In this document: in pieces, positions 17,844 through 63,364 of the stretch | How the letters are laid out: the number at the start of each line of letters is the position of its first letter | Numbering within the stretch: position 1 is the first letter of the stretch | Origin: a virus | Taxonomy: Duplodnaviria > Caudoviricetes | Reading direction: 5' to 3' (one strand) | IMG/VR virus record: IMGVR_UViG_3300009314_000001 | Length of the DNA stretch: 64,000 nucleotides | Position numbers and translations under genes: made by a program | The notes under the pieces: model-generated | Seen by the model: the letters and a program-made list of their open reading frames with translations, nothing else | What the model was told of the DNA's origin: nothing | Database searches by the model: none

Positions 17844-18563
17844 TTACAGACCAAAGAAAGCATCAATTTCCTTGACCAGCATCTTCTGATACACCTCAGG
17901 ACTGAATCTACTACGACTTCTGCGAACAGGACTAAGTCGCTTATTCAGACTTTCAGTAATATTCAAAATTGCCCCACCCACTGAGGGTTCGGCAACCGCA
18001 TCCCACGTAACAAAAGCATAACCAGGCATTACACGATAGGTCTCATGACCACCCTGTTCCTGGACCTCCATGTCCCCGACACCACGCGAAGAAATTCCTA
18101 CCCGGACCTTATGCTCAAATAATCCACGAAGCATCGCCCCACAAGGTAACAAATGGAGTACCTCAGCCTCACCATAGACCTTCTTACCCTCCATCCAGAC
18201 CTTAGTGATCAAATGGCTAGCACGATCAAGATGGATCTTAGCATCAGCAGGGTGATCATATTCACCCATTACCGCACGTGCAGTAATATCCTCCTGAATC
18301 TGATTTACCGCTGGAGCCAAAACATCCCTAGTCGGATAGAATCGACCGTTAGCATTCTCCTTATCACCCAATTGGAACAGACCAGTTACTCTCGTAAGTG
18401 GTTGCTGTTGACCATTAATATCCTCAACAACAGTCTTCTGGTCAAGGACTTCAAACGGGTGAGTGTCCTGAATAAGCTGATAACCGGTGGGTACTATACC
18501 AGTTTCAGCTATCAAGCCACGGTTAAAGAGCGGTCTTGTAGCGCTTCTTGTGGGAAGAACCAT
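17844..18563 (-). CDS. prohead core protease, T4 gp21-like
   Basis: KENANGRFYP, MGEYDHPAD, HLDRASHLIT, VGISSRGVG, TWDAVAEPS. Confidence 0.95.
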   Translation of the reverse strand: MVLPTRSATRPLFNRGLIAETGIVPTGYQLIQDTHPFEVLDQKTVVEDINGQQQPLTRVTGLFQLGDKENANGRFYPTRDVLAPAVNQIQEDITARAVMGEYDHPADAKIHLDRASHLITKVWMEGKKVYGEAEVLHLLPCGAMLRGLFEHKVRVGISSRGVGDMEVQEQGGHETYRVMPGYAFVTWDAVAEPSVGGAILNITESLNKRLSPVRRSRSRFSPEVYQKMLVKEIDAFFGL

Positions 18564-26286: not shown

Positions 26287-28275
26287 TTATTTTTGTTTAT
26301 CTTCGCTTCTAGTATAGTAAAACTTCTTAGGAGATATAACAGGACCTCCTTGCCCAATCGGAATAGCCCCCAATTGCAAAGTAAAATCATCTAATTGGGC
26401 TTGAGCAGACATCTCAGGAAGCTCATCAGGAGACAAAGTCATCGGCATAAGAAGCATAGCCCCACCCTTATCAAGAAAACGCTGTTGAGCCGCCAAAACC
26501 TCATCATCAGACATTATATTAGGACCAACAGGCTGCTTAAAATCATTCTTACCACCATACGGGATAAGTCCTGCCTCATCACTCAACAAAGCATCATTAG
26601 TCCCAAGCAGTCCTAAACCAGTAGCAATCACAAGGTCATCGTAGTTCCCAGCACCTTCCTCAGCCTCAGTCTTATTGGTATCTCTACCAGCTTTATCGCG
26701 CTTCCTAACATAAGTCTGTATCTGCTTCAGCAACCTCTTACTGTATATGGTGTATCCTTCTTCCTCCTTATCCCTAATAAAGTCTATTAGGAATTTATTG
26801 AGCGTTGGTTTACTCGCTGGAGATGTAGCAAAACCATACGGTGATACCTTTAGAGCTCTCTGATTAGAGCTCGACCCTGGAGCTCTAGGATTATCGTTAA
26901 TATCCTTCTTTCGCCAGATTCTAGGATACATTACATCATATCGCATAGAATCGACTACTGTATCCCCGCCATTATTTCGCTCAATAACTGCCAGAGCACA
27001 ATTGTACCATCTACCTATACGATCAATATATTTTATGAGTTCTCGAGGCAAACATCGAGCCATGAATTCAGCAACTTGCTCCATCGTATCAACATCAAAG
27101 ACCTCAATAGCACTATAATCACGTCCTTTACCCGTTGCTATATCAATCCCCATCACATAAGCATGTGCTCGTGTTCCTTGATCTATTATTACACCAGCTC
27201 TCTTCTTATCTGGTGTGGCAGACACCGGTTGCTTCCATACCCACAAACCTTCCTCCGGCTCCATAAAGTCGAAATCCATTTCTTCGGCTTCGCCAGATAC
27301 AGGATGGACATAAGTCTGATACCCACGTACCTTCTGAGCAGGATCTCGAACCGTCGTCTGCACATGTGCAATAACACTCTCAGAGAGAACTGTGTTACCA
27401 GACCCGATAAAGCTAGCTAGAATTTCCTGCTTGAACTTCCAGGCCTCACCTTGTTCTTGAAGCGCTTTCCATTGTTCCTCTAACCATGGTGACCAATATG
27501 GGCCGTACTTGGCAAGGTCTTCTTTACTTGTGCACCTTCTGATCCCATCACGCGGTGCAATCCTCTTGCGTTGCTTTGATAGCGGATCGGTGAATTCAAT
27601 AACCCAATCCATGTCCCACCAGTTAATGATAAGTGGGTTGAATTGGTTCAATCCTGCCTCGGCATCGGTACAGGTCGACCAATACCAATTACCAACACCA
27701 TTCGTGGTGGAAATGACTATAACATTACCACCATGTTGCAACGTAGGCCAACCACCAGCCCACATCACATCCATACCCTGAATAAATGCGGATTCATCGA
27801 TAATATTCAATGATGATGCATGGGATCGTAGGACATCAGGGTGAGATGTTAAGGACTGGATCCGAGATCCATTGGGAAATACTATCTCATGCTCATTCTG
27901 TTTGACAGGTTCCCAAATTTCTCGCATCCATAATGGTAAATGCTCAAAAAGGAATACCACGTGATCCCGTAGAAAAGACATAGCATCTTCATTTCTACGG
28001 GAGACGATTAGGATTGTTTTGTGGCTATGCATCATCGCGAACCATGTCGCGAATGCACCAGCAATTTTTGATACGCCTGACTGACGGCATTTTCGGAAGA
28101 TATTAAGCCTATTAAGACGGAAGGCTTTGATAGCATCCTTTTGATAGCTAAAAGGATTGAACGGCAGAACGCCAGCAGAAGGGTGCTTCAATTTACCGAA
28201 ATTGCGTAGGAACCAAGTTACAGACGACTGGCACCTCTTAATAACTTGTGCTTGTTGTGCTGTTACTTTCGGCAT
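26287..28275 (-). CDS. terminase large subunit, T4 gp17-like
   Basis: KHPSAGVLPFNPFSYQ, KCRQSGVS (Walker A), IIDESAF (Walker B), ISTTNG, MGIDIATGKGRDYS, YDDLVIA. Confidence 0.97.
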   Translation of the reverse strand: MPKVTAQQAQVIKRCQSSVTWFLRNFGKLKHPSAGVLPFNPFSYQKDAIKAFRLNRLNIFRKCRQSGVSKIAGAFATWFAMMHSHKTILIVSRRNEDAMSFLRDHVVFLFEHLPLWMREIWEPVKQNEHEIVFPNGSRIQSLTSHPDVLRSHASSLNIIDESAFIQGMDVMWAGGWPTLQHGGNVIVISTTNGVGNWYWSTCTDAEAGLNQFNPLIINWWDMDWVIEFTDPLSKQRKRIAPRDGIRRCTSKEDLAKYGPYWSPWLEEQWKALQEQGEAWKFKQEILASFIGSGNTVLSESVIAHVQTTVRDPAQKVRGYQTYVHPVSGEAEEMDFDFMEPEEGLWVWKQPVSATPDKKRAGVIIDQGTRAHAYVMGIDIATGKGRDYSAIEVFDVDTMEQVAEFMARCLPRELIKYIDRIGRWYNCALAVIERNNGGDTVVDSMRYDVMYPRIWRKKDINDNPRAPGSSSNQRALKVSPYGFATSPASKPTLNKFLIDFIRDKEEEGYTIYSKRLLKQIQTYVRKRDKAGRDTNKTEAEEGAGNYDDLVIATGLGLLGTNDALLSDEAGLIPYGGKNDFKQPVGPNIMSDDEVLAAQQRFLDKGGAMLLMPMTLSPDELPEMSAQAQLDDFTLQLGAIPIGQGGPVISPKKFYYTRSEDKQK

Positions 28276-30126: not shown

Positions 30127-31776
30127 TTACGGTAAAAATTCTGCTCCACCATGGTCATACTTGAGGTCTTCGACGTCCATCTTCATCATCGGCAGTCTCT
30201 CACCACCGTAGCCCTCATTAACACACAAGTAAGCAAGTTCAGTACAGTATCTCGCAATCCTAACCATGTCCTCATAATTAATTTTATCCGCCGTATCCCT
30301 GCTCGTATGATAATCATTGTGACTACCAGTAAACAACCATACTGCAGGAACACCAGCAGACCTAAATCTGGCATGATCTGATGCGCTACCACTAGTACGA
30401 GTAAGGTCATCAGCAAATGGATACGTAGGACTCAATCTATCAATATAATCATCCCAATCAGCACCAAGTTCTGCCCATTGTATCTCGTGTTCACCGAGTT
30501 TCTGAGAATAGACGTGACCAAATCGATATCTCCCAACCATATCACAATTGATCATAGCAATATGGTCATCAATATCTGGATTTCCCTTCGGGAAAGTCGG
30601 ATTATTGACGTAATATCCAGCACCTATCAAGCCACTCTCTTCGGCCGTATACAATTGAAAAACAATAGTTCTTGGACCCGGCTTCATCAATGAAAAAGCA
30701 TACGCAGCACACATCACGACCACAGAACCAGATGCATTATCATCAGCACCCAATCGACCATTACCCAAATGATCCAAGTGGCCACCTACAACTACAACAT
30801 CATTTTTCAACGCCGGATCAGTACCCTCGATATATGCAAAGAGATTCTCATCACGATAACTACCACTCCAGGTAACTTTCTGCCGCTCCGTCTCCAACCC
30901 CCATTCCTTATACAAATCCTCAATATACTTCACAGCTTTCTGATAACCAGGTCTGTTTGGCCTACGTCCATCAAGTTCTGATGATGCTAGATAATAGAGC
31001 CATTCCTTCTGATCCTCTTGTGTGATTTTCTTAACAGCTTCTTCAACGGGCAAATAAGGTGGAGGCTCTTCTGCATTACCAAAGTTCAAAGGCTCGGCGA
31101 CACCCTGTTTACCAGCTTTATTCTGGCCAGCTTGAATAGTAACAGTAGTACTACCATCATATGTGTTAATCCAGCCATCCTGTAGCACCTCAGATACTGC
31201 ATATGATCCAGCAGATAAATCGGCAAATACATAATGACCTTGATTATTAGTGACTGTTGTCTTATCATTCAGTTTAATAGTCCAACCGGCAAGTCCTGGC
31301 TCATTAGAATCCCAAGTACCGTCATTATCAGTATCATGCCATTTGAAACCTGATATTGAAGACGGAGGCGGCGGCGGAGGTGGCACGAACTTGCCTTTGT
31401 AATGAGCAATATCTGTACCTTCAACTCCTTTACCGGTCACATCCATAACTAGCCGGTGCTCACCAAGTTTGGCCTTCTCTTTGCCCTCGAAAGTCCATGT
31501 TTCATCTGTTTCGAGGACATAGTTTTTATTAGTATCACCACTTTTTAGTGCTAGTTGGATTGGTGCCATACCGGGATCTAATTCCACAGTGTGATTGATA
31601 CTAGACACGGCTACAGAACCGGTATTATCAACTATGCCAGTAATAGTATACTCTGTGTCCTTGTTAATCTCCGGCCCAGGTGGTGTATCTGCAGTATCTC
31701 CATTAATCTGCAGATCAACAGAAATAGCAGGCTGACAACCAGCCAACAATAGCACTAAAAGTAGCAATTTTCTCAT
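30127..31776 (-). CDS. lipoprotein with Ig-like and SdrD-B/Cna-B-like domains and an M28 metallopeptidase domain
   Basis: Lipobox LLAGC; ISGFKWHDTDNDGTWDSNEPGLAGWTI; GGHLDH, GADDNASG, AEESG, NCDMVG, SDH and YH zinc-binding motifs. Confidence 0.9.
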   Translation of the reverse strand: MRKLLLLVLLLAGCQPAISVDLQINGDTADTPPGPEINKDTEYTITGIVDNTGSVAVSSINHTVELDPGMAPIQLALKSGDTNKNYVLETDETWTFEGKEKAKLGEHRLVMDVTGKGVEGTDIAHYKGKFVPPPPPPPSSISGFKWHDTDNDGTWDSNEPGLAGWTIKLNDKTTVTNNQGHYVFADLSAGSYAVSEVLQDGWINTYDGSTTVTIQAGQNKAGKQGVAEPLNFGNAEEPPPYLPVEEAVKKITQEDQKEWLYYLASSELDGRRPNRPGYQKAVKYIEDLYKEWGLETERQKVTWSGSYRDENLFAYIEGTDPALKNDVVVVGGHLDHLGNGRLGADDNASGSVVVMCAAYAFSLMKPGPRTIVFQLYTAEESGLIGAGYYVNNPTFPKGNPDIDDHIAMINCDMVGRYRFGHVYSQKLGEHEIQWAELGADWDDYIDRLSPTYPFADDLTRTSGSASDHARFRSAGVPAVWLFTGSHNDYHTSRDTADKINYEDMVRIARYCTELAYLCVNEGYGGERLPMMKMDVEDLKYDHGGAEFLP

Positions 31777-33353
31777 CAGATCACAGTCCCTTTTTCGAAC
31801 TTGAAAGTACCAGGCTGACCAGGTACTGGAACAAGAATATGGTCGTATCTCGACCCATCACTATCGATGTGATATGGCCTTCCTCTGATCACAATTCTCT
31901 CGTCAGCAACCTCACCCTTAATCGTACCGTTAAGAGGAGCACAATTAGCGGCTGAAACAAACTTGTAGGAACCAGGATTTGTCGGATCAGATGCAACAAC
32001 ATGATCACACCTTGTACCGTCACTATCGATATGATAGACAGTACCAGATAATACAATCTGCAAACCTGAACCAATCGACCCATATATATAGCCATTAACT
32101 GGCCGATACGGAGGCGGAGGCGGAGGAATAATCTCACCAGGAACACCTTGGAATTTCGGGAAATAGGCGTAATCATATGAATCTAGGTATCGATTGTAAG
32201 TCGATACTGTTGTCATCCATGCTCCCTGATTCTTAGGACCCCAACCCCAATTACCCTTCACGGCGTGCATCAGATCGAACATTTCGTTCGGACTTCGAAT
32301 GGCTTTAACGTCAGCCCAGGTGATGACTGTACCATCACTGAGACTACCGAATGGCCAATTAGAGTCGCTAATCTCACCGCTCCAACCACCACCCCACGTC
32401 TGCCCATGAAGCATAGCATGATTAGATTTTGAGATACTGTTGACGCCCTTGCTCTTAAACCATGAGATGCACTCGTCAGACCAGTCCTGGCCGTAGCATG
32501 TTTGAGCATGCCCACCGATACCTCTTGTCGTATCAAGTCCTCCGGAGCCAGCCGTCGTATTAGACCCATGGTGAAGGGAAGCACCACGACGAGCAAGACC
32601 CTTATACATCTCGTCGCTTGTCCCGGTAACTTCAACAATAGCACCGTCATCATATCTGAAATTGGAGTGTACCCAGTTCTCGATAGCATCTGGCGGGCCA
32701 CCACGACACCATACAGATGAAGGATATCGCTCACATTGGGATTCTGTATGGAATTCCAAGTCCTGGTAACTCGGTGTGGTCAACTTCGTGCCTAGTGCTC
32801 GACCATCAAAAATTGTGGCCGGGCACCAACCATGTTCCCTGGCGACAGAGGCATGAGCACTCATATACCAACCAGAACCACAACTACCACGATATGAGTA
32901 GGCCCACAATGAAGCCAGAGTGAACATCTGGTATTCATTCGTTGGATCTCGTGATTGGACACCAAGCAGATTCATCATCATCTCGGCACCCGATGCTCCT
33001 ACACAGTTACCAGAATTCTGGAGCATCTGGTAAATCCAATTATTATATCCTTCGTTGTATTTCTCGAACTCTTCGAAGGAATATGCCGTAAAGACATAAC
33101 ATCCCTCAACACCCTGATACGGCTCCATCTCATCGTCGCCGCGATTATCGTACATCGTAAGAGAATCCTCGGCACGATATTGATTTTTACCGACAAGGTC
33201 TCGAAATCGCTCCTGTTCCTTGAGTGCTTTTCTGCCTTCTGGCGTACTCGGATCTGGAAGTATGCATCCGGTGTAACCACCGGCATAAGCGGCTTCCAAG
33301 GCTTTTGTTTTCAGTGCTCGATCTTGGATCGATGGTAGGAATTCATTGGACAT
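31776..33353 (-). CDS. papain-like (C1-type) cysteine protease
   Basis: QNSGNCVGAS (Q...C), GGHAQ (His), GQTWGGGW (NSWG position); PPPPPP linker and two C-terminal repeats. Start moved to ATG 33353. Confidence 0.75.
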   Translation of the reverse strand: MSNEFLPSIQDRALKTKALEAAYAGGYTGCILPDPSTPEGRKALKEQERFRDLVGKNQYRAEDSLTMYDNRGDDEMEPYQGVEGCYVFTAYSFEEFEKYNEGYNNWIYQMLQNSGNCVGASGAEMMMNLLGVQSRDPTNEYQMFTLASLWAYSYRGSCGSGWYMSAHASVAREHGWCPATIFDGRALGTKLTTPSYQDLEFHTESQCERYPSSVWCRGGPPDAIENWVHSNFRYDDGAIVEVTGTSDEMYKGLARRGASLHHGSNTTAGSGGLDTTRGIGGHAQTCYGQDWSDECISWFKSKGVNSISKSNHAMLHGQTWGGGWSGEISDSNWPFGSLSDGTVITWADVKAIRSPNEMFDLMHAVKGNWGWGPKNQGAWMTTVSTYNRYLDSYDYAYFPKFQGVPGEIIPPPPPPYRPVNGYIYGSIGSGLQIVLSGTVYHIDSDGTRCDHVVASDPTNPGSYKFVSAANCAPLNGTIKGEVADERIVIRGRPYHIDSDGSRYDHILVPVPGQPGTFKFEKGTVI

Positions 33354-33381
33354 ATCTGACTCCAAGGATAAAAATTGGGTA

Positions 33382-34134
33382 TTAGACTGATTCTCTGAGT
33401 CCTTTAGCACAATCAACAAGCAACGATCCATAATCGGTGTTTGTCGCACCCTCTTGCCCCAACTTGTCGAACCAATCCTGTAACAATATGCGGAAAGGCT
33501 GCCAAGCAGTTAATGCTGGCTCACCCTTGGGGTCGAGGACAGCGCGAAAGCCCTTGCTAACGTCCTCAGAGATCTCAATCCTGCCGTTAAGTTCACCACC
33601 AGTAACCTTAGCAACAGTCGCATCACATGCGGCAGCTAATTGCGTAGCCGTAAGGATACGATCTGGATCAGCAGTTGCTGCTAAAGCCTGATCCTTAAAT
33701 TCTTCGACACGATCTGGCGGGGGTGGTGGCGGATCAAATTTGCCCTTGTAATGGGCTGGATCAGAGGCTTCGACCCCATCTCCAGTGACATTCATTACTA
33801 GACGGTGTTCGCCGAGTTTGGCTTTCTCCGTTTCTTCGAATATCCATGTCTCGTCGGTATCAAGAACGTAGTTTTTGTTTGTGTCTCCGCTCTTGAGCGC
33901 CAACTGGATCGGTTGCATACCTGGTGCCAGCTCAACCGTATGATTGATTTCTGACACGGCCACAGAGCCGATATTATCGACTATCCCAGTAATTGTAAAT
34001 TCCGTATCCGCCGTGATTTCGGGTCCAGGCGGGGTATCTGCAGTATCGCCATTAACCTGCAGATCGACAGAAATTGCTGGTTGGCAACCAACAATCGCGA
34101 GTAACAATAGCAATAGCAATAGGTTCTTAACCAT
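33382..34134 (-). CDS. lipoprotein, paralog of the N-terminus of 30127-31776
   Basis: Lipobox AIVGC; about 120 near-identical residues up to the polyproline linker, then a helical domain. Confidence 0.85.
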   Translation of the reverse strand: MVKNLLLLLLLLAIVGCQPAISVDLQVNGDTADTPPGPEITADTEFTITGIVDNIGSVAVSEINHTVELAPGMQPIQLALKSGDTNKNYVLDTDETWIFEETEKAKLGEHRLVMNVTGDGVEASDPAHYKGKFDPPPPPPDRVEEFKDQALAATADPDRILTATQLAAACDATVAKVTGGELNGRIEISEDVSKGFRAVLDPKGEPALTAWQPFRILLQDWFDKLGQEGATNTDYGSLLVDCAKGLRESV

Positions 34135-34204
34135 GGGGTCACCATAATAGCAGAGGAGTATCTTTATACCTTGATTCTACGTTGAACCAAGCGCACATCT
34201 CTTG

Positions 34205-34214
34205 ATTATATTTG
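34205..34214 (-). promoter_or_regulatory. putative late promoter CAAATATAAT
   Basis: Identical to 17805-17814; upstream of the lipoprotein-protease triad. Confidence 0.45.
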
Positions 34215-34218
34215 GTGC

Positions 34219-35241
34219 CTACTCCTCGTCGTGGTCGATATTTGACTCACGACGACCATCGGATTTTTGTTCAGCACCTTTATTAGTTGGAGAATCTGTA
34301 AATTCCAGACTCCGCAACTTTATAAATTTGATAAAATTGGTGACTGTTGGGCGAGAAAGCCCTGATCGTTGCACCAGTTTACCTATTATCCCATCATATG
34401 GTCTATCATCGTTGTATATCAGGTATTCCAGTGCATTAAGGATTGTTAAGAAGTCATCATGATACTTGCACATATCCCTAGCTTCACTAAGGAATCTAAT
34501 CATGATGTCACTGGTTGGTTTGGGCTTATTACTAAGATGGCCAATATACGAGGCAGAATTCTTCCTATCCCTAGCTTCTTTCTTAATATATGCTAGGATT
34601 ACCGTACGGGATATCTGTGACCACATATTAAACACTTTAGACATCCCACGGTATAATACCGTCTCAGATCCTCCATATCTGCCCTGCATCGGCTCTACAA
34701 TAGGAATTACCACCAATTTATGCTTACAATGCGGACAACACTTATGTAACTTCAGAGTTTCTTTCAGCGTTTTTATACCATATTCCTTATCGGCAGGCTC
34801 ATATAATAGAGAATCAGACGGCCGATCAGGACTAAAACAAGACCTACAATGTGGTCTAGCACGATACTTATATAGTGTCCGCTCTATTTGACACCACGCT
34901 GTCTGTAGAAGATCTCCAAAGGCAGATTCTTCTTGCCCAGGATATATCGTATGGAGGCCTTGTTTCCTGATAATTTGTCTAATTAGTTCAGTGGCATGTG
35001 ACATTATCTTGTCACGTAAGTTTACTTGTGTACATCCAGTCCAGATGTACTTGGTCAATTGCCACTCAACAATTTCATTGACAAAATATAATCGGCGGGT
35101 TGGTGCTGCATCACCAGGTAATGCACCATTTGCAGGGTTAGTCTGCGACGGCGATGAGTTGTTTTTGTCGTGTCCGTTTGAACAGCCGTTTGGGCACGAC
35201 ATATCGACGTTTGATGAGTTTTTCACCATCAATGCTTCCAC
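34219..35241 (-). CDS. sigma-70-family (gp55-like) phage sigma factor with a Zn-ribbon insertion
   Basis: Region-2-like ELIRQII...GDLLQTAWCQIERTLYKY and KVFNMWSQISRTVILAYIKKE flank a CRSC...CCPHC insert; C-terminal HTH-like SGLSRPTV. Start uncertain. Confidence 0.6.
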   Translation of the reverse strand: MEALMVKNSSNVDMSCPNGCSNGHDKNNSSPSQTNPANGALPGDAAPTRRLYFVNEIVEWQLTKYIWTGCTQVNLRDKIMSHATELIRQIIRKQGLHTIYPGQEESAFGDLLQTAWCQIERTLYKYRARPHCRSCFSPDRPSDSLLYEPADKEYGIKTLKETLKLHKCCPHCKHKLVVIPIVEPMQGRYGGSETVLYRGMSKVFNMWSQISRTVILAYIKKEARDRKNSASYIGHLSNKPKPTSDIMIRFLSEARDMCKYHDDFLTILNALEYLIYNDDRPYDGIIGKLVQRSGLSRPTVTNFIKFIKLRSLEFTDSPTNKGAEQKSDGRRESNIDHDEE

Positions 35242-36811: not shown

Positions 36812-37129
36812 TCAATCAAGGCGTCCTGGCATCATTCTAGCGATAGTGTCTATAGGATCAAACTGCGGCTCCTCATTCTCATCACATCCAAATAATTCTT
36901 CTATTCTATCTATAGACTTCGGATCATTTAGGTCAAAAGTATGTGGGCCTATTTTGAGAATGGTTTCATTAATAACAATAGCATCTGGATAAAGTCCTTC
37001 CACCACAGGACCATAGATATGAATCTGTACGCCCATATCAAATCCGACCGGATTATCATATGGGTCTAGCCAAGCCCTATGATCAGGACTCGTGTTGATG
37101 AGATCTACTATAGCCTTTAGTACATCCAC
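36812..37129 (-). CDS. hypothetical protein with FDLNDPKS motif
   Basis: 105-aa ORF coupled to the reductase gene. Confidence 0.6.
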   Translation of the reverse strand: MDVLKAIVDLINTSPDHRAWLDPYDNPVGFDMGVQIHIYGPVVEGLYPDAIVINETILKIGPHTFDLNDPKSIDRIEELFGCDENEEPQFDPIDTIARMMPGRLD

Positions 37130-40100
37130 TAAGTATCCTCAACGGTAACCACCACTTTCTTCTTTTGATCTGGCGGTGGCAACTCACATTTATCAGAATC
37201 ACAATAGTGGCTTCCAACAGCCTCAGTTATATAGTCACTGTAATCAGGCTCAGTGACTTTATTATTATATTCAACAACCTCTTCCGGTGTGCAAGCTTCG
37301 TAAGGGGCCTGAGGATAATCGTGATTCTCCGTAGGAAGGAATGAGAGACCTTTCAAGCTGTCCTCATACGATGCCAAGATCTTCGCGATTTCTTTAGCCT
37401 CGTGTTCATGAAATCGTATGGTACAAGATACCTGATTATCAGCCCAATACCTCTGATAGTCTACAACATTCTTGACTTGCTCCCAGATATTAACCTCGCC
37501 GACAGGCCTTACACCATTGCATTTTACGGCGAATGTTGCAACCATCGTCTTCGGATCAGTAACAGACAGTTCAACATGATAACCAGCATCTTGTAAGATC
37601 TTGATAAGTACACTATCATTCGATATTCTAACTCGCCGCCAATACGTACATGATTCTGGGTGATGTATACCAGGTGTGGCACCAACCATAAGACTAACAG
37701 TACCACTAGGCTTAACACTAGTCACTTTGATAGACTTAGGAACGCACAACCACTCGGAGTAGATCTCATCCCATCTGCGAATCTCGTTATATCCAGCATC
37801 GCAGAAATCCTTTAGCACTTTACGTCTGCCAAACCTCTCAAAAGCCTGGACAATACCACTCTGTGACAGGCCTATCCGGCGACTTCTTAACATCACTTGG
37901 TTAGTTCTGGCATTATGAGTTGGCAATAGTGTGACGGTCTTCCCATATAAGTATGCAAACTTCAAAGTCCTCATATATTCGTCGGCGGAATCATGATTAT
38001 TCGGAAATGTCTCGACGAGGCAGCACAATTCATAAGATTCAAGACTCTGTTCTCCACACTGCCCTACTTTATGACCTTCAACTACTACTTGATTCGTTTT
38101 CGGCTCAGTCAGACAATAAACAGTGTCTTCACCAAGGCATTCAACAGACTTAATTTTAGTATATCGACCAGTGTCTGAATTATTAGAACCAGTCTTACCA
38201 ACAAGCCATTGTCTTGCTTTAGTGATCTTAGACTGCTGAATGAAACCTACGTAGTCAAGAAATTTCGTGACTTGTTTTATTCCAGATATAATCAATTCCC
38301 ATTGTTCTTTTCGATTATATAATTTCTTGCCGCCTTTCCCATCATTCATCATCTGCTTAGATGATTTTCTTCGATGTTGAACAGTACTAGCTATACCAAG
38401 TTGACTAAACAGTAACCTGCAATCTAATAACAATTGCTGGTTAGACTGTGATATCCTAACCGATATTGTACCATTATCGCTAATTTGAACACCACCATCA
38501 GCAGATGCGAACCCCTTAAGAAATGCTGCTATCGTCTCACGCGATCCACACCATATACTAGAAGGAATATGATGCTTATCGCCAGATCTGACCCCATCGG
38601 CCACTAACAACCTGCCTAGCACTGTAGAACCAATATGTTCTTCGTCATGCTCAAAATGTTTTTGCTCTCTTTTCCAACCAGCATATACAGGTTGTTGATT
38701 TGTCGACTTTGTATGTGTGTGATATACTTCAAGCATCAAGCCTCTAAGTCTTGGCAAAACGTCACTAACATCATCGTCATAACACGCGCACTTTGCACGC
38801 ACTTGACCATCTTTTTGTGGTGATAATGAACCATCACCTATTACCCAGCCAGCCAACTCTGCATATGCCATATCATACAACACATTAGCAGAAGTTGCGT
38901 GAGTTGTTTGATTGAGTGGGATCATCATGCCAACTTCAAGATCCCCAAGTTTTACTCTTCGCTCAGAATACTCCACCTTCTTCTTGACTCTTGCCCTATC
39001 AAGAACGATGAATTCATGATTCCTAGTAGCATCAACCCAAGATCCATCTGTAAGGATTACTCGATACACAATATCAGCACCAACCCTATACACCTTTGTT
39101 GCTGGTGCCAATCCATTATCATTAACAATGACCTGCTCGCCATATTTCTCTAATGGATTACTACCTAGCCCATCATATTCAAGCGACCCTTGGCTAAGCC
39201 AAAGATCTTCAAGTCTTTCATAACCATATTGCGTCAAAATCCGCATACTTCCGGCGAAGCAGGGGTTTGTACCACATGCTCTACTATCTATACCAGGTCG
39301 CCTACCATCTATCATTCTACCGAAATCACGTATGTTATCCAACCATTGATAACCCGGCTCACCACTTATACCAGTACGTTCTGCAAAATCTGTATAATCC
39401 ATGCCTATTTCAGCAAAGATTGAATTGTTCGATGCCCATCTATGACTATTCCTAGCATTCCAAATATCGATGGCCTTCTGGAATCGATCACTACCTATAG
39501 CGATTTCGCCAAACATTATCGGTTCGGCACGCCAAATATCCTCATCTTCCAACTTCGTCACCACTTCCGTGAACACTTCAGCTTCTGTACTCGTCAGATC
39601 AGCTAAAGGACTCTTCATCATACAATATTCATAGTCCTTCGGGGAGCCTAATGCTATTTCTGAGGATCTGCGCACATTACCAGCTACTACACAGGCCCCT
39701 ATATAATTCATGATATCGACTATATCAACACTGGAGAGTGTCGCACCGATCCTAGACTCCAAATGTTCACGCACAAATGCATGCAGTGATTGTAGGATGC
39801 TTGGACCTGATGCTTTGCCACCAAATCCATTAATTGGTTCACCAGCTCTTCTAATCTCATCATAATTGAATAGAACATTACCGTCATCAGACTTTATAGT
39901 ATACGACCATATAAGACGACGCAGAGAGTCCACCCAACCTTCTCGAGAATCGGCGATCGTATAGATATTATCGATAGATGCGGGCTTATGAATTTGTATT
40001 CGATTAGCTCCCTTTGTATCAAACCCAACGCCGACACCAAGCATAGACATATCCATAAGAAAACAGAATGGCTCCGCTGGGTCAGATTCAATCTGATCAT

Positions 40101-40548
40101 ATGTTGATACAAAACCACAATTATTAAGGGCTGCTGATCCTCTCTCCCACATGAACTCAGTACCCATCATCCATAAACCGCGACCGGGAGGCAAGAACTT
40201 AAAGTTCCATATCCTCTCAAACATTTCTTGGGCTGAATCCTGAGCCTTATCATAGTCCCACGGCAAGTGTAATCGACGTTGATGCCGTCTTTGGATTTCG
40301 TAGCAACCTTCGACAACACGACGTGCAGTATCAAGGAATGTCTCTTTGGAGCCATCATCCGTGACACGGGAATATGTGCGGTAAAAAATGAACTCGCCCA
40401 AACCATCAAAGCCAAATTTGGGCTTCTTACCAACATATCCACTAAGGAATGATCCACCAAGTCTGAAGTGCTTTTCTTCCTCTACTTCCTTGTTAAAGTA
40501 CTTCTGAGATATGTTCTCTACCTTGATCTGCCTAGCCACTACGGACAC
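37129..40548 (-). CDS. nrdJ: class II (adenosylcobalamin-dependent, RTPR-type) ribonucleotide reductase with intein
   Basis: FLPPGRGLW, AALNNC, GVGVGFD, VVAGNVRRS, GTNP|CGE, ELCCLVE, SVKPSGTVSL, DNQVSCT, C-terminal CDSDKC. Confidence 0.93.
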   Translation of the reverse strand: MSVVARQIKVENISQKYFNKEVEEEKHFRLGGSFLSGYVGKKPKFGFDGLGEFIFYRTYSRVTDDGSKETFLDTARRVVEGCYEIQRRHQRRLHLPWDYDKAQDSAQEMFERIWNFKFLPPGRGLWMMGTEFMWERGSAALNNCGFVSTYDQIESDPAEPFCFLMDMSMLGVGVGFDTKGANRIQIHKPASIDNIYTIADSREGWVDSLRRLIWSYTIKSDDGNVLFNYDEIRRAGEPINGFGGKASGPSILQSLHAFVREHLESRIGATLSSVDIVDIMNYIGACVVAGNVRRSSEIALGSPKDYEYCMMKSPLADLTSTEAEVFTEVVTKLEDEDIWRAEPIMFGEIAIGSDRFQKAIDIWNARNSHRWASNNSIFAEIGMDYTDFAERTGISGEPGYQWLDNIRDFGRMIDGRRPGIDSRACGTNPCFAGSMRILTQYGYERLEDLWLSQGSLEYDGLGSNPLEKYGEQVIVNDNGLAPATKVYRVGADIVYRVILTDGSWVDATRNHEFIVLDRARVKKKVEYSERRVKLGDLEVGMMIPLNQTTHATSANVLYDMAYAELAGWVIGDGSLSPQKDGQVRAKCACYDDDVSDVLPRLRGLMLEVYHTHTKSTNQQPVYAGWKREQKHFEHDEEHIGSTVLGRLLVADGVRSGDKHHIPSSIWCGSRETIAAFLKGFASADGGVQISDNGTISVRISQSNQQLLLDCRLLFSQLGIASTVQHRRKSSKQMMNDGKGGKKLYNRKEQWELIISGIKQVTKFLDYVGFIQQSKITKARQWLVGKTGSNNSDTGRYTKIKSVECLGEDTVYCLTEPKTNQVVVEGHKVGQCGEQSLESYELCCLVETFPNNHDSADEYMRTLKFAYLYGKTVTLLPTHNARTNQVMLRSRRIGLSQSGIVQAFERFGRRKVLKDFCDAGYNEIRRWDEIYSEWLCVPKSIKVTSVKPSGTVSLMVGATPGIHHPESCTYWRRVRISNDSVLIKILQDAGYHVELSVTDPKTMVATFAVKCNGVRPVGEVNIWEQVKNVVDYQRYWADNQVSCTIRFHEHEAKEIAKILASYEDSLKGLSFLPTENHDYPQAPYEACTPEEVVEYNNKVTEPDYSDYITEAVGSHYCDSDKCELPPPDQKKKVVVTVEDT
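38059..39261 (-). mobile_element. LAGLIDADG intein (401 aa) with a Gln C-terminus
   Basis: Starts CFAGSMRILT after GTNP; LAGWVIGDG and FLKGFASADG motifs; ends VYCLTEP...GHKVGQ before CGEQ. Confidence 0.93.
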
Positions 40549-60751: not shown

Positions 60752-62509
60752 CTAACGATCAGGAATAGTTCGAACATCTTTAGTATCTCCATTAGGATCT
60801 ACAGCAGTTGGTAGGATTTCTACCTCTTCATCTAGTACCACTTGTGCGACATATAAGTTTCTACCATTAATCACTGACATCACTCGAATGTTGATGTCAA
60901 TTTCTTCACCATCCTTGGTGACCATTTTGCCAGAAACTTGTATGATGCCGCCTTTATTTAATTTTTCCAGAAGATCCGGATACGTCATTCCTATTTGGTG
61001 TCTCTCGAATCTTCCTGGGGGGATTATTAGGTCAAGCTTTCTACCTATAGCTTCACCTTCTGTCCACCCAAGTAATTTTTGAGCACCATCATTCCACATA
61101 GCAATCGTACCATTCTTAGCATCACAAATAATATATGCTGTATCACTCATTTCAATTATTCTACGCCACTGATCTGCTCTCTTATTAGCCCTGTATATTG
61201 TTATGACTTGCCATAGGTCTTCCATCAAGAAAGTAACTTGCAAGACGTCATCTTGCGTATACGGTTTCTTCTTATTCCCAAGTCCTATAATTAGTCTACA
61301 TTTCCCTTCAGTAAAAACTGGTACAGACATATATCGGCTCAATACTACTTTATGCTCTGCAGGGTGCTCTGCATTTTCATCCATAGGCTTGCCACCAAAG
61401 TCATTGTTAACGTATGCCTTTTGTGTTCGAAATGGAATAGCCCATTGTGCTTCCCTTGCGATACCTTCTGCAATATCAAATTCAGCACGATCATTATGTA
61501 TCTTATAATCCAACTGCATATTTTCAGACCAAACAGCTACTGTCACCGTATTTTCATCATTTTCATGAACATAGCCTATATAACCATACCTACTACCAGT
61601 CAAGCGAATACATTCTTCTAGACAAAAATCCTTCAAACTCGCCTCAGTATGTGTACCAACATGGCTGTATAATTTAAGAGAAGCTTCTAATCTCTCTTGC
61701 GTTATACTAATCCTAACATCATTCACTTGTGCCACATGTAAACTATATCCAAGAAATGAAACCAAAAAAGCAATGATAAGAATGATTATAGCAGATGATA
61801 CTTTGCGTAATGTGTTTTCAGGCTTCCGCTTACGCGATTCATGTCTATCGTGGAGCCGCTTAAAAATCGGAGTAAGAGCACGAATGAACACAACAGAACC
61901 AACAAGTATGACCAAAACAGCAAAACTTGAAGCAATAACACCAGCCCTAATAAAAGGACTTCTGATTTCAGCAATATCCATTTTCGCCACTAATCCAAGA
62001 TCGCAACAAATCATATCAACGGGTTCATATGCTGCAAGGACATATACACCTCTATAATCGCGACCTACCATGGAACCAGAGTGACCATTTAGAACCATTT
62101 GCATAGGCTCAGCATAATTAGATTTTAAAGCTATGATCTTACGATCTTCTACACCTGTATGGCGATGACTAAGTAGAAATACTATATCACTACCTTCTCG
62201 TTCTGCTAATGTAAATTCTCCAGTTTTGCCAAAACCATTATATCTCCGATGTGCTTCAGTAATTTGAGTCAATGCTGCTTCAGATGCTTCATCTTGATCT
62301 TCAATTTGACTATGAGAGAATTTAGCTATTGACTCCATTAATCTGGCCTGGCTACGAGAAGTCTCAACTAATCTACGCTCAACTTCATGTACTGCAGCAT
62401 TATACGACAACACTATCGAGACAATACCAATAATCAATGACACACAAGTCATAACTATTAGTAAAAAATAAAATCTTTTACGATCATCACGTATCATCGT
62501 TTGGCTCAT
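60752..62509 (-). CDS. membrane sensor protein: TM-Cache-TM-TM-GAF-PAS, with no kinase or other output domain
   Basis: GFGKTGEFTL...GRDYRGVYVLAAYEPV (Cache-like); YGYIGYVHE...RYMSVPVF...GLGNKKKPY (GAF); WNDGAQKLLGWTEGEAIG (PAS); ends 25-30 aa after the PAS. Start placed after GGAGG. Confidence 0.85.
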   Translation of the reverse strand: MSQTMIRDDRKRFYFLLIVMTCVSLIIGIVSIVLSYNAAVHEVERRLVETSRSQARLMESIAKFSHSQIEDQDEASEAALTQITEAHRRYNGFGKTGEFTLAEREGSDIVFLLSHRHTGVEDRKIIALKSNYAEPMQMVLNGHSGSMVGRDYRGVYVLAAYEPVDMICCDLGLVAKMDIAEIRSPFIRAGVIASSFAVLVILVGSVVFIRALTPIFKRLHDRHESRKRKPENTLRKVSSAIIILIIAFLVSFLGYSLHVAQVNDVRISITQERLEASLKLYSHVGTHTEASLKDFCLEECIRLTGSRYGYIGYVHENDENTVTVAVWSENMQLDYKIHNDRAEFDIAEGIAREAQWAIPFRTQKAYVNNDFGGKPMDENAEHPAEHKVVLSRYMSVPVFTEGKCRLIIGLGNKKKPYTQDDVLQVTFLMEDLWQVITIYRANKRADQWRRIIEMSDTAYIICDAKNGTIAMWNDGAQKLLGWTEGEAIGRKLDLIIPPGRFERHQIGMTYPDLLEKLNKGGIIQVSGKMVTKDGEEIDINIRVMSVINGRNLYVAQVVLDEEVEILPTAVDPNGDTKDVRTIPDR

Positions 62510-62837
62510 CATCCTCCTCCGACTCATCAGGAACCGGTTCAATATGGAGATTTATCTTCCCCTGAAAGAAAATCTTCATTAAATCAAGTGCCGTTGCCCC
62601 ACCTATTCCAGCTAGCCCACTCACGGCTAACAAAAATGGTATATTTCCTTTGCCTTCAAAGTAATTATACCACATTAAAGCAACAATTAATCCAATGATT
62701 CCACTATATAAGATAGACGATAAGACGGATCTGAGATTCAGATCTTCTTTACCTCTCAGTAAAGCTGCTAGTCCTCCAAGAGCTGCGACGCCGAAGGCCG
62801 ACATGAAGACTAGTATATGAGTAAGAGTCCACACCAT
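62487..62837 (-). CDS. holin, LydA-like, three TM segments
   Basis: AALGGLAALL, SGIIGLIVAL and SGLAGIGGATAL pattern; charged C-terminal tail. Confidence 0.7.
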   Translation of the reverse strand: MVWTLTHILVFMSAFGVAALGGLAALLRGKEDLNLRSVLSSILYSGIIGLIVALMWYNYFEGKGNIPFLLAVSGLAGIGGATALDLMKIFFQGKINLHIEPVPDESEEDDEPNDDT

Positions 62838-62871
62838 AAGTTAACCCAGTCATAAGTTAACCCAGTCATAA
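62835..62871. repeat. perfect 16-bp tandem duplication (CATAAGTTAACCCAGT x2.3)
   Basis: 62835-62850 equals 62851-62866, followed by CATAA; spans the holin start region. Confidence 0.95.
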
Positions 62872-62872
62872 A

Positions 62873-63364
62873 TTATCCTACACAAGCATGAAGGCACAAA
62901 CCATACACGAAAAGCCCAAACAAACTAAGTATGATACACCAAAAGAACACACACCTCCAAAACCTAATTTTCCTCTCCTTCAGCAACAGATAAGCTTGAA
63001 CAATAAGGGCATTTCCTATAAATTGCATATTCCCTTGACCCTTCCATAGGTATGTCAATGCTCCTGCATTATTAGCTTCCAGAATTAACTCAAGCTCTTC
63101 ACTACCTGAAAAGACGACAACAGGGGGACTTTTATGTCGTCTATATCTAATATATTCAATAGTTTGTTTAGGTGTTGAATCTGGCAGATTCAGATCTAAC
63201 AAAATCAAATCTGCATGTCTTTCACGTCCATGTGCATCATGTAGAGTACTAACAACCTCCAATGATATCAACTTATTCTTATCATTGTGTTCTAATACTC
63301 GCTGCATTAGAGCGATATCGACTTGTAAGTCCTCGACCCACAATATCTTCATCGATTTCATCAT
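62873..63364 (-). CDS. response-regulator receiver protein with a C-terminal transmembrane anchor
   Basis: VED, LLDLNLPD (phospho-Asp), VFSG and YLWK are all present; KERKIR then a hydrophobic 22-aa segment. Confidence 0.9.
   Translation of the reverse strand: MMKSMKILWVEDLQVDIALMQRVLEHNDKNKLISLEVVSTLHDAHGRERHADLILLDLNLPDSTPKQTIEYIRYRRHKSPPVVVFSGSEELELILEANNAGALTYLWKGQGNMQFIGNALIVQAYLLLKERKIRFWRCVFFWCIILSLFGLFVYGLCLHACVG

What the first reader, a model, noticed from the sequence alone, without database searches (positions are those of the whole stretch)
30127..34214. Late lipoprotein / cysteine protease / lipoprotein-metallopeptidase triad: a possible protease-based envelope-attack module
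Seen: three tightly coupled genes behind CAAATATAAT: a lipoprotein, a papain-like protease and a lipoprotein M28 peptidase with an SdrD-B-like domain. All have hexaproline linkers. No glycan hydrolase or amidase endolysin is visible in this window. Inference: a membrane-tethered proteolytic complex for lysing or remodelling a protein-rich envelope or S-layer, or for destroying receptors to exclude superinfection.
Basis: partly seen in the sequence, partly recalled or inferred. Interest (0 to 1): 0.75.

Follow-up and report, generated by a model that had tools for sequence, protein, structure and literature searches.

The report
Phage envelope-anchored papain-type protease module
A giant marine T4-like phage encodes a papain-type protease with no export signal that is predicted to dock onto an exported lipoprotein, next to a metallopeptidase carrying the same lipoprotein tag; this probably attacks envelope proteins late in infection, and the searched literature does not describe it.

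Summary
Three coupled minus-strand genes encode:
- A, a lipoprotein (33382-34134);
- B, a 525-aa protein with a papain/procathepsin fold and no signal peptide (31776-33353);
- C, a lipoprotein carrying SdrD_B and an intact M28 aminopeptidase (30127-31776).

Only these three of 164 ORFs in the record have runs of six or more prolines.

The conserved unit is the A-B pair, not the triad. An A-like exported protein lies directly upstream of B in all 13 other loci that include the upstream DNA. Distant relatives fuse A and B into one exported protein. Co-folding places B's last beta domain on A's helical domain (0.75 against a best control of 0.00).

C is an add-on. The closest relative lacks it. 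C shares A's N-terminal Ig-like lipoprotein module (86% identity). A third copy of that module elsewhere in the genome leads into an M14 carboxypeptidase.

My best reading, at about 50%, is an envelope-tethered protease set that acts at or after holin-mediated membrane breach. The target and the timing are untested. Only about a third of the genome could be searched for a classical endolysin.

This scan has flagged similar papain-protease-plus-exported-partner cassettes on other phage DNA. I found no paper describing one.

The parts
34205..34214 (-). CAAATATAAT motif in the 84-nt gap upstream of A; candidate promoter element
   Evidence: The core CAAANATA is start-proximal in 16 of 32 copies in the record. 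This copy lies 80 nt from the ATG and is not conserved in L004.
33382..34134 (-). Gene A: 250-aa lipoprotein that serves as the anchor for B
34084..34134 (-). A signal peptide and lipobox (residues 1-17, IVGC)
   Evidence: Read directly from the sequence. Only A and C have a lipobox among the 164 ORFs.
33733..34086 (-). A N-terminal Ig-like module (residues 17-134), shared with C and with P0029
   Evidence: 86% identical to C over 118 aa. DUF11/DUF7507-like: Atlas structure TM 0.84 by query. My own AF2 model of this part is poor (pLDDT below 50).
33715..33732 (-). A hexaproline linker (residues 135-140)
33385..33714 (-). A C-terminal helical bundle (residues 141-250): the conserved part of the A family and the predicted docking site for B
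   Evidence: pLDDT above 93. Conserved in 12 A-like proteins. Interface residues 185-229. No specific fold match, Z below 8.
31776..33353 (-). Gene B: 525-aa papain-fold cysteine protease with no signal peptide
33054..33353 (-). B N-terminal helical region (about residues 1-100) that aligns to the pro-regions of procathepsins and propapain; a zymogen-like segment
   Evidence: Model ranges starting at residues 8-17 align to proenzyme chains. Helices at 12-24, 38-54, 61-71 and 89-99.
32139..33053 (-). B catalytic domain (about residues 101-405), with Gln112, Cys117 (codon 33003-33005), His282 (codon 32508-32510), Gln318 and Trp320
   Evidence: These columns are invariant. Cys117 sits at the N-terminus of helix 117-135. 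Inteins are inserted exactly before this Cys in three relatives.
32109..32126 (-). B hexaproline linker (residues 410-415)
   Evidence: A Pro-rich linker is conserved across the family.
31953..32105 (-). B first small beta domain (residues 417-467), an extra tandem copy specific to this phage
   Evidence: An internal repeat of about 48 aa, local alignment score 122. Relatives have one copy.
31779..31946 (-). B last beta domain and C-terminus (residues 470-525): predicted to dock on A
   Evidence: Interface residues 483-492, 506-509 and 520-525.
30127..31776 (-). Gene C: 549-aa lipoprotein M28 aminopeptidase
31384..31776 (-). C signal peptide, lipobox (LAGC, Cys14) and the same Ig-like module as in A
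31363..31383 (-). C heptaproline linker (residues 132-138)
31147..31359 (-). C SdrD_B-like domain (residues 140-210)
   Evidence: Pfam PF17210, E 2.9e-11, above the cut-off.
30238..30846 (-). C M28 catalytic domain (residues 311-513)
   Evidence: Pfam PF04389, E 5.3e-35. Aligned to the S. griseus aminopeptidase 1cp7 at E 6.6e-18, with the HLDH, DDN, EE, DM and DH motifs all present.

Best explanation
What is shown or predicted:
1. A and B form a self-contained two-gene module.
2. A is exported and lipid-anchored. It carries an Ig-like spacer, a rigid polyproline linker and a helical bundle that faces the periplasm.
3. B is made in the cytoplasm without a signal peptide. It is a procathepsin-like zymogen (pro-region, Cys-His catalytic domain, polyproline linker, small beta domains).
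4. B's last beta domain and C-terminus are predicted to plug into A's helical bundle.

What I infer:
5. The two can meet only when the inner membrane is breached. I therefore read the module as a holin-gated protease, by the same logic as a holin and its endolysin. It becomes tethered to the envelope late in infection and cuts envelope proteins. Candidate targets are outer-membrane-to-wall tethers, an S-layer or receptors.
6. In this phage the same lipoprotein address module is also fused to an M28 aminopeptidase (C). Elsewhere in the genome it leads into an M14 carboxypeptidase. An endopeptidase and two exopeptidases would then be gathered at one site.

The substrate, the timing, pro-region removal and the link to lysis are all inferred, not shown.
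For: Fold and active site:
- AF2 pLDDT is 87.7.
- Xylellain 3ois_B scores Z 18.0 (rmsd 3.4, 227 aligned). Procathepsins and propapain score Z 14-16, pro-regions included. All top Foldseek hits in the PDB and AFDB are C1A peptidases.
- Gln112, Cys117, His282, Gln318 and Trp320 are invariant.
- Inteins sit exactly before the catalytic Cys in P0019, P0168 and P0188, and right after the QTWG motif in P0175. Inteins typically lodge in constrained active-site motifs.

A-B link:
- An A-like exported protein lies immediately upstream of B in L002-L012, L014 and L018.
- Single-chain fusions exist with the order signal peptide, Pro linker, A-like domain, B-like protease. P0208 matches the A profile at hhalign 94% (E 1.3e-7) and P0191 at 84%.
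- Co-fold: score 0.75, best of 3 controls 0.00. The mark was reached by 58 of 80 solved complexes and 2 of 110 mismatched pairs. Those counts hold only roughly here, because my own alignments were used. The runs agree in at least 73% of contacts and the partner's pLDDT is at least 91.

Membrane anchoring is conserved. The two lipobox versions of A (this window and L007/8) lack the C-terminal hydrophobic helix that eight of the nine Sec-signal versions carry.

B and its 24 aligned homologues have no hydrophobic N-terminus.

C is intact and shares A's module at 86% identity.

The third copy of the module (P0029) runs into SdrD_B and M14 in an overlapping frame.

A to TerL form one overlapping gene string next to T4-type portal, gp21-like protease and gp23 genes.

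Small membrane proteins flank the module in several smaller phages: a 63-aa two-TM ORF between A and B in L007, and others in L013, L023 and L024.

None of 8 endolysin families was found in the 122-kb record.
Against: - There are no expression, localisation, activity or binding data.
- M28 and M14 are exopeptidases, a poor fit for breaking structural proteins quickly.
- The fused relatives carry their own signal peptide, so in them no holin is needed. The holin-gated step may therefore not be general.
- The module's genomic position varies. It lies beside the terminase here and in L004 and L008, between tail-type genes in L012 (judged by eye from the sequence; Pfam found nothing for one of them), and among DNA-metabolism genes in L018. 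This looks like a mobile accessory gene pair rather than a fixed lysis cassette.
- The only holin candidate in the window is weak (PF16083, E 5e-5, below the cut-off) and lies 29 kb away.
- No neighbour of the module matched a holin, endolysin or spanin family.
- Two thirds of the genome are unseen, so a full classical lysis cassette may exist.
- Position 318 is Gln where papain has Asn, and Pfam Peptidase_C1 does not match B.
Confidence: 0.5

Rival explanations
1. Nutrient scavenging, as an auxiliary metabolic function. The anchored aminopeptidase, carboxypeptidase and endopeptidase digest periplasmic or imported proteins and peptides to amino acids. These feed a long jumbo-phage infection in nitrogen-poor seawater.
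For: - An endopeptidase, an aminopeptidase (M28) and a carboxypeptidase (M14) together make a complete digestion set.
- C and the M14 gene product are Sec/lipoprotein-exported, so they would act before lysis.
- Secreted M28 genes 54-62% identical to C occur in other marine contigs. At least one (L017) is an otherwise unrelated phage, as expected of a generally useful accessory gene.
- The samples are marine.
Against: - B, the only endopeptidase, has no export signal in any of the 25 split-type homologues. It could not reach the periplasm of an intact cell.
- The genes sit in a string with the terminase, which suggests late expression, when little time is left to profit from the amino acids.
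- No transporter or amino-acid metabolism genes are linked.
Confidence: 0.2
2. Receptor destruction. The anchored proteases stay on the envelope and on debris, and they degrade the phage's protein receptor. This would block superinfection or stop progeny from being lost on lysed-cell fragments. It would be an enzymatic counterpart of the receptor-blocking lipoproteins Llp of T5 and Cor (from my own knowledge).
For: - Phage lipoproteins are classically exclusion or receptor-masking factors (established knowledge).
- Tethering B to a membrane anchor rather than releasing it makes sense if the substrate is in the envelope.
- The module behaves as a mobile accessory pair found in varied genome positions.
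Against: - By the E. coli sorting rule, a lipoprotein with Gln at +2 faces the periplasm, not the cell surface where receptor loops lie.
- B being leaderless means no activity before lysis, so exclusion during infection is unlikely.
- Nothing identifies a receptor.
Confidence: 0.12
3. B is the phage's actual endolysin or its outer-membrane-disrupting factor, replacing a muralytic enzyme or the spanins. It would cut peptidoglycan stem peptides or the protein links of the envelope.
For: - B has the topology of a canonical endolysin: cytoplasmic, leaderless, with an extracytoplasmic site of action.
- No member of 8 endolysin families, and no lipoprotein other than A and C, is in the 122-kb record.
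- About 15% of phages lack spanins and must use other means (bioRxiv 10.1101/515445, abstract as listed).
Against: - C1A-type enzymes are not known to cut D-amino-acid-containing stem peptides. The wall-active papain-fold families are CHAP and NlpC/P60, which were not the top fold matches.
- Only 34% of the genome was searched.
- Earlier notes of this scan on other phages report ordinary endolysins alongside such cassettes. I did not check those notes.
Confidence: 0.1
4. B is a virion or morphogenesis protease that processes head or tail proteins.
For: - The module lies next to the packaging and head genes here.
- It lies between tail-type genes in L012, judged by eye from the sequence.
Against: - The phage has its own T4 gp21-type prohead protease (PF03420, E 3.8e-18, at 17844-18563).
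- B's obligatory partner is an exported membrane-anchored protein, and fused relatives are themselves exported. Both place the site of action outside the cytoplasm, where capsids mature.
Confidence: 0.03

Closest known systems
Xylellain and other C1A papain-family peptidases (PDB 3OIS; procathepsins B, L, K; propapain)
   Same: - Two-lobe papain fold: Z 18.0 to 3ois_B and Z 14-16 to the proenzymes.
- Gln...Cys at a helix N-terminus, His on a beta strand, and an x-Thr-Trp-Gly motif.
- An N-terminal helical segment that aligns with pro-regions.
   Different: - No sequence match to Pfam Peptidase_C1 or to any PDB chain.
- Gln where papain has Asn175.
- Phage-encoded and leaderless.
- Carries a polyproline linker and one or two C-terminal docking domains.
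- Always paired or fused with an exported partner.
Holin-endolysin-spanin lysis systems of phages of diderm bacteria (lambda S, R, Rz, Rz1)
   Same: A leaderless enzyme whose site of action is beyond the inner membrane. A phage-encoded lipoprotein with a Pro-rich segment. A plausible late transcription unit.
   Different: - The enzyme is a protease, not a muralytic enzyme.
- A is far larger than an o-spanin, has folded domains, and has no i-spanin-type partner gene.
- No holin is adjacent in this window.
- No lysis role has been shown.
Staphopain-staphostatin operons (papain-type protease with a dedicated co-transcribed binding protein; from my own knowledge)
   Same: A papain-fold protease and a dedicated partner encoded side by side.
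   Different: The staphostatins block the active site and stay in the cytoplasm while the protease is secreted. Here the partner is exported, the protease is not, and the predicted contact is the protease's C-terminal domain, far from the active site.
Cohesin-dockerin enzyme display (cellulosomes; from my own knowledge)
   Same: Enzymes carry a small C-terminal docking module on a Pro-rich linker. The module binds a surface-anchored scaffold protein.
   Different: The folds are unrelated: a helical-bundle receptor and a small beta docking domain. There is one enzyme per anchor. The system is phage-encoded and periplasm-facing.
Baculovirus V-CATH (late viral papain-type zymogen released at cell death; from my own knowledge)
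   Same: A virus-encoded, late, papain-type proenzyme kept inactive until the host cell dies.
   Different: It belongs to a virus of eukaryotes, is retained in the ER with chitinase, and liquefies tissue. No homology beyond the fold class has been shown.
M28 aminopeptidases (S. griseus 1CP7, Vibrio/Aeromonas 1AMP, YwaD)
   Same: The catalytic domain of C matches at E 6.6e-18, with all metal-ligand motifs present.
   Different: It is fused to a phage lipoprotein address module, a heptaproline linker and an SdrD_B domain. Its closest relatives (54-62% identity) come from marine metagenome contigs, at least one of them a phage.

Membership tests
Peptidase family C1 (papain), clan CA | Papain two-lobe fold | tested here: met
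   VIA-align gives Z 18.0 (rmsd 3.4, 227 aligned) to xylellain and Z 14-16 to many C1A chains. The top Foldseek hits in the PDB and AFDB are all C1A peptidases, plus calpain cores of the same clan CA in the PDB list.
Peptidase family C1 (papain), clan CA | Catalytic Cys at a helix N-terminus, preceded by the oxyanion-hole Gln, plus a catalytic His | tested here: met
   Gln112, Cys117 and His282 are invariant in 25 sequences. Cys117 begins helix 117-135.
Peptidase family C1 (papain), clan CA | Asn that orients the His, in an Asn-Ser-Trp-Gly type motif | tested here: not met
   The motif here is Gln318-Thr-Trp320-Gly, with Gln invariant in the close family. The distant member P0225 has Asn-Thr-Trp. 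The position is chemically similar but is not the canonical residue.
Peptidase family C1 (papain), clan CA | Sequence match to the family profile (PF00112) | tested here: not met
   No Pfam hit at E up to 0.01. No PDB chain matches the family profile at E up to 10. The ESM Atlas places B among viral clusters in which 14-89% of members carry PF00112. I therefore file B as a papain-fold (clan CA) protease of a divergent, unnamed family.
Bacterial lipoproteins (A and C) | A positively charged n-region, a hydrophobic h-region and a lipobox [LVI][ASTVI][GAS]C within the first 15-25 residues or so | tested here: met
   A has Lys3, a Leu run and IVGC (Cys17). C has Arg2-Lys3, a Leu run and LAGC (Cys14). 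This was a rule-based reading; no SignalP was available.
Peptidase family M28 (C) | Profile match above the curated cut-off | tested here: met
   PF04389 scores 121.3 bits against a cut-off of 21.3, covering profile positions 1-191 of 193.
Peptidase family M28 (C) | Co-catalytic zinc ligands His, Asp, Glu, Asp, His and the catalytic Glu | tested here: met
   The alignment to 1cp7 shows HLDH, DDN, EE, DM and DH at the corresponding columns. I assigned the ligands from my own knowledge of the S. griseus enzyme.
o-spanin / u-spanin (A) | A small outer-membrane lipoprotein encoded with, or embedded in, an i-spanin gene; for a u-spanin, a lipobox plus a C-terminal TM | tested here: not met
   A is 250 aa with two folded domains and has no adjacent N-terminal-TM coiled-coil gene. 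The lipobox versions of A lack the C-terminal hydrophobic helix, and the versions with that helix lack a lipobox.
Phage endolysin (B) | Cleaves peptidoglycan and is needed for lysis | not testable with these tools
   Only the topology fits: leaderless, with an extracytoplasmic partner. No muralytic family matches B.
A-B module as found here (exported anchor plus papain-fold protease) | An A-like exported gene immediately upstream of B, or fused to it | tested here: met
   This holds in the window and in 13 of 13 other loci with upstream DNA. The fusions are P0208 and P0191.

The most novel reading that the evidence does not exclude
A third kind of phage lysis effector. A holin-gated, zymogen-type papain protease snaps onto a pre-positioned periplasmic anchor and opens the envelope by cutting proteins rather than glycan or stem peptides. 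Possible targets are outer-membrane-to-wall tethers or an S-layer. In this marine jumbo phage it would stand in for the endolysin, the spanins or both. The M28 and M14 exopeptidases would be addressed to the same site by a shared lipoprotein module.
Probability: 0.2. Interest if true: 0.85.

Novelty: new variant of a known kind. Interest (0 to 1): 0.68.

Why it matters
Phage lysis of diderm bacteria is taught as holin, muralytic endolysin and spanin. A sizeable minority of phages lack one of these parts.

This module has the topology of an endolysin and the chemistry of a cathepsin. A conserved exported anchor pairs with a leaderless papain-type zymogen, and three independent in-silico lines tie them together: adjacency, gene fusion and co-folding.

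If it acts on the envelope, it would:
- add a protein-cutting step to the lysis repertoire;
- point to protein-rich envelope layers as a phage target in marine bacteria;
- supply a natural docking pair (a small beta domain and a helical bundle) and a lipoprotein address tag reused for three protease classes.

If it is instead a digestive or receptor-destroying system, it is still an undescribed class of phage accessory function.

It can be tested directly with two or three recombinant proteins.

Tried and rejected
Searches that found nothing useful:
- blastn of the 4-kb locus and tblastn of B against 50,697 GenBank phage records gave no match.
- Pfam and PHROGs on A and B gave nothing. The B family profile against PDB sequences gave nothing at E up to 10.
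- The IMG/VR scan gave only one related locus.
- The fold search for A's helical domain returned only generic helical bundles, best Z 7.7. No fold assignment was made.
- My AF2 model of A's N-module was poor (pLDDT below 50). The DUF11-like call rests on the Atlas model only.
- Pfam and PHROGs on small neighbours of the module in L002, L004, L005, L007, L009, L010, L012, L013 and L018 found no holin, endolysin or spanin family.
- Literature searches on phage M28, phage papain-type proteases, xylellain with phage, and spanin alternatives found no description of such a module.

Expression: no RNA holder was listed for the locus or for B alone.

Ideas tested and dropped:
- Do the M10 and S8 peptidases next to A-B in L003 and L005 carry B's docking domain? 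They do not.
- Are there other copies of the docking domain in the 122-kb record? None.
- B as the prohead protease: rejected, because a gp21-type S77 protease is present.
- A as an o-spanin or u-spanin: rejected (see the membership test).
- Tat 'hitch-hiking' of B on A: no twin-arginine motif in any A-family signal peptide (read from the alignment).
- Foreign origin judged by base composition: A and B have GC 0.48-0.49 against 0.418 +/- 0.044 for the record's genes, which is not distinctive.
- The longer 557-aa reading of B from the GTG at 33449: rejected. It overlaps A, adds no signal peptide, and the database gene call and all homologues start at the later Met.

Full report
**Setting**

The window is the minus strand of bases 44694-108693 of a 122,317-bp IMG/VR virus record. 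CheckV rates the record 34% complete. A protein identical to B is on record on a 340-kb contig.

The phage is a distant T4-type myovirus:
- Portal_T4 (E 1e-66), a gp21-type prohead protease (PF03420) and Gp23 (E 8.5e-81) lie at 14-24 kb.
- gp25, baseplate J and a gp5-type OB hub lie at 42-48 kb.
- The large terminase (26287-28275) is at most 27% identical to any GenBank phage.

DNA runs that hold part of the locus are marine metagenomes.

**Observation**

On the minus strand lie A (33382-34134, 250 aa), B (31776-33353, 525 aa from the ATG behind a GGAG) and C (30127-31776, 549 aa). B and C share one base. The string continues through a 288-aa gene, a 208-aa gene and a GNAT gene to the terminase, with overlaps of 1-32 nt.

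A and C have textbook lipoboxes, the only two among the 164 ORFs of the record. A, B and C are the only ORFs with runs of six or more prolines.

C matches SdrD_B and M28 well above Pfam's cut-offs. It keeps every metal-ligand motif when aligned to the S. griseus aminopeptidase.

B has no Pfam, PHROG or PDB sequence match, but its fold is clear:
- The AF2 model has pLDDT 87.7.
- It matches xylellain at Z 18.0 and procathepsins and propapain at Z 14-16, and the N-terminal helices align to their pro-regions.
- Foldseek on the PDB and AFDB returns only papain-type peptidases at the top.
- Gln112, Cys117, His282, Gln318 and Trp320 are invariant across 25 homologues.

Inteins add a side argument for the active site. 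In P0019, P0168 and P0188 an intein sits exactly before the catalytic Cys, which then serves as the +1 residue. In P0175 an intein follows the QTWG motif. Inteins usually lodge in constrained catalytic motifs.

The exact motif CAAATATAAT occurs twice in the window, which is not above chance. Its core CAAANATA lies just upstream of gene starts in 16 of 32 copies (P about 1e-17). The copy before A is 80 nt away and is not conserved in L004. 'Late' therefore rests mainly on the shared gene string with the terminase.

**The conserved unit is A-B**

The B family is small. It has 27 clusters at 90% identity and 78 representatives among 1.84 billion proteins. There are none in 50,697 GenBank phages.

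In every locus that includes the upstream DNA, the gene directly before B encodes the same architecture: a signal peptide or lipobox, a short beta motif, a Pro-rich linker and a helical domain homologous to A residues 141-250. These loci are L002-L012, L014 and L018.

The two lipobox versions (this window and L007/8) lack the C-terminal hydrophobic helix that eight of the nine Sec-signal versions carry. Some form of membrane attachment thus seems to be kept one way or the other.

In more distant relatives the two genes are one. P0208 and P0191 start with a signal peptide, a Pro linker and an A-like domain (hhalign 94% and 84%). They continue into the protease and lack B's docking domain. P0213 and P0216 look the same by eye.

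Co-folding B with A(141-250) gave 0.75 against a best control of 0.00. The mark was reached by 58 of 80 solved complexes and 2 of 110 mismatched pairs. These counts hold only roughly here, since my own alignments were used. The runs agree in at least 73% of contacts and the partner's pLDDT is at least 91. The interface joins B 483-525 to A 185-229.

This phage's B has a tandem duplicate of the small beta domain.

**C is an add-on that shares an address**

L004 is the closest relative: terminase 76-84%, helicase 69-75% and RNR 72% identical, with the same gene order. It has A and B but no M28.

L003 and L005 carry a leaderless matrixin, with a cysteine-switch pro-domain, and a leaderless subtilase just upstream of A-B.

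An M28 61% identical to C, with its own Sec signal, sits in an otherwise unrelated 105-kb phage.

What ties C to A is the N-terminal module, which is 86% identical over 118 aa. It is DUF11/DUF7507-like according to the Atlas model.

A third copy of the module, P0029, lies elsewhere on the 290-340-kb contigs. Its ORF is overlapped by a +1 frame that continues the homology to C through the linker and SdrD_B. That frame ends in an M14 carboxypeptidase (E 6e-21), in which I read by eye the HxxE, NRN, His and Glu motifs of family M14. The same 137-aa product is on record on 12 contigs, so the frame break is not an artefact of one assembly. Whether it is bypassed is unknown.

The phage therefore links three protease classes to one lipoprotein tag.

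**Mechanism**

Shown or strongly predicted:
- an exported, anchored A;
- a leaderless, zymogen-like B;
- a specific A-B contact through B's C-terminus;
- an intact exported M28.

Inferred: in the split form the two partners are on opposite sides of the inner membrane. They can meet only after it is breached, which is the logic of holin and endolysin. Small membrane proteins sit next to the module in several small-phage contexts, but none matched a holin family. The window's only holin candidate is weak and lies 29 kb away.

No member of eight endolysin families is in the 122-kb record, but two thirds of the genome are unseen.

My estimates are:
- about 50% on late, envelope-tethered proteolysis at or after membrane breach;
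- 20% on periplasmic digestion for nutrients, favoured by the two exopeptidases and the mobility of M28;
- 12% on receptor destruction;
- 10% on B being the true endolysin or spanin substitute;
- 3% on a morphogenetic role, since a gp21-type protease is already present.

**Relation to earlier notes and to the literature**

This scan holds 28 notes, from at least 26 other genomes, on phage cassettes that pair a papain-type protease with a lipoprotein or other exported partner. They are unchecked AI notes. Some report ordinary endolysins nearby and read the protease as an accessory lysis factor.

My results were obtained independently and agree on the pairing and on the xylellain-type fold. For this divergent family they add three things: the fusion proteins, the docking interface, and the shared address module with M28 and M14.

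Five literature searches found no description of such a module.

**Verdict**

I score interest at 0.68.

Noticed in passing
L021:10001-11882 (same phage, outside the 122-kb record): A lipoprotein ORF (P0029, 137 aa) carries the same N-module as A and C. It is overlapped by a +1 frame that encodes SdrD_B, a second DUF11-like module and an M14 carboxypeptidase. This looks like one gene split by a frame break, and the same 137-aa product is on record on 12 contigs.
   Followed up: partly
P0019, P0168, P0188, P0175 (B homologues): Inteins are inserted exactly before the catalytic Cys (three clusters) or right after the QTWG motif (one cluster) of the protease. This phage group is intein-rich in general: L004 has inteins or homing-endonuclease domains in its RNR, helicase, terminase and the homologue of the 340-aa gene upstream of A.
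   Followed up: partly
window 37129-40548: A class II-type ribonucleotide reductase interrupted by an intein with a LAGLIDADG domain.
   Followed up: no
window 60752-63364: A weak LydA-type holin match (PF16083, E 5e-5, below the cut-off) at 62487-62837 lies between a receiver-domain protein and a membrane GAF-PAS protein. A 40%-identical holin-like gene followed by PAS proteins lies about 9 kb upstream of the A-B pair in L005.
   Followed up: partly
L017:10001-10990: A Sec-signal M28 peptidase 61% identical to C's catalytic domain sits in an otherwise unrelated 105-kb phage contig, just downstream of its capsid gene region. About 20 further homologues at 54-62% identity come from marine metagenome contigs.
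   Followed up: partly
L003:2391-5384 and L005:5971-9089: Relatives carry a leaderless matrixin (M10) with an MMP-type cysteine-switch pro-domain and a leaderless subtilase (S8) just upstream of their A-B pair. A giant fused RNA-polymerase beta/beta' gene lies downstream.
   Followed up: partly
window 34219-35241: The 340-aa gene upstream of A has no Pfam or PHROG match. By eye it resembles a T4 gp55-like late sigma factor with a zinc-ribbon insertion. Its L004 homologue carries a LAGLIDADG intein. The resemblance was not tested.
   Followed up: no
L021:11883-12977: A volactin-type actin homologue (PF25216, E 7.5e-40) is encoded next to the M14 gene in the same phage genome.
   Followed up: no
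G000 record, 16 sites (e.g. window 17814, 55823, 70428): The octamer CAAANATA lies 8-45 nt upstream of same-strand gene starts in 16 of its 32 copies. The genes include a 958-aa gene that looks like a tail sheath by eye, a 1543-aa gene and the gene before the major capsid protein. It is probably a phage promoter element.
   Followed up: partly
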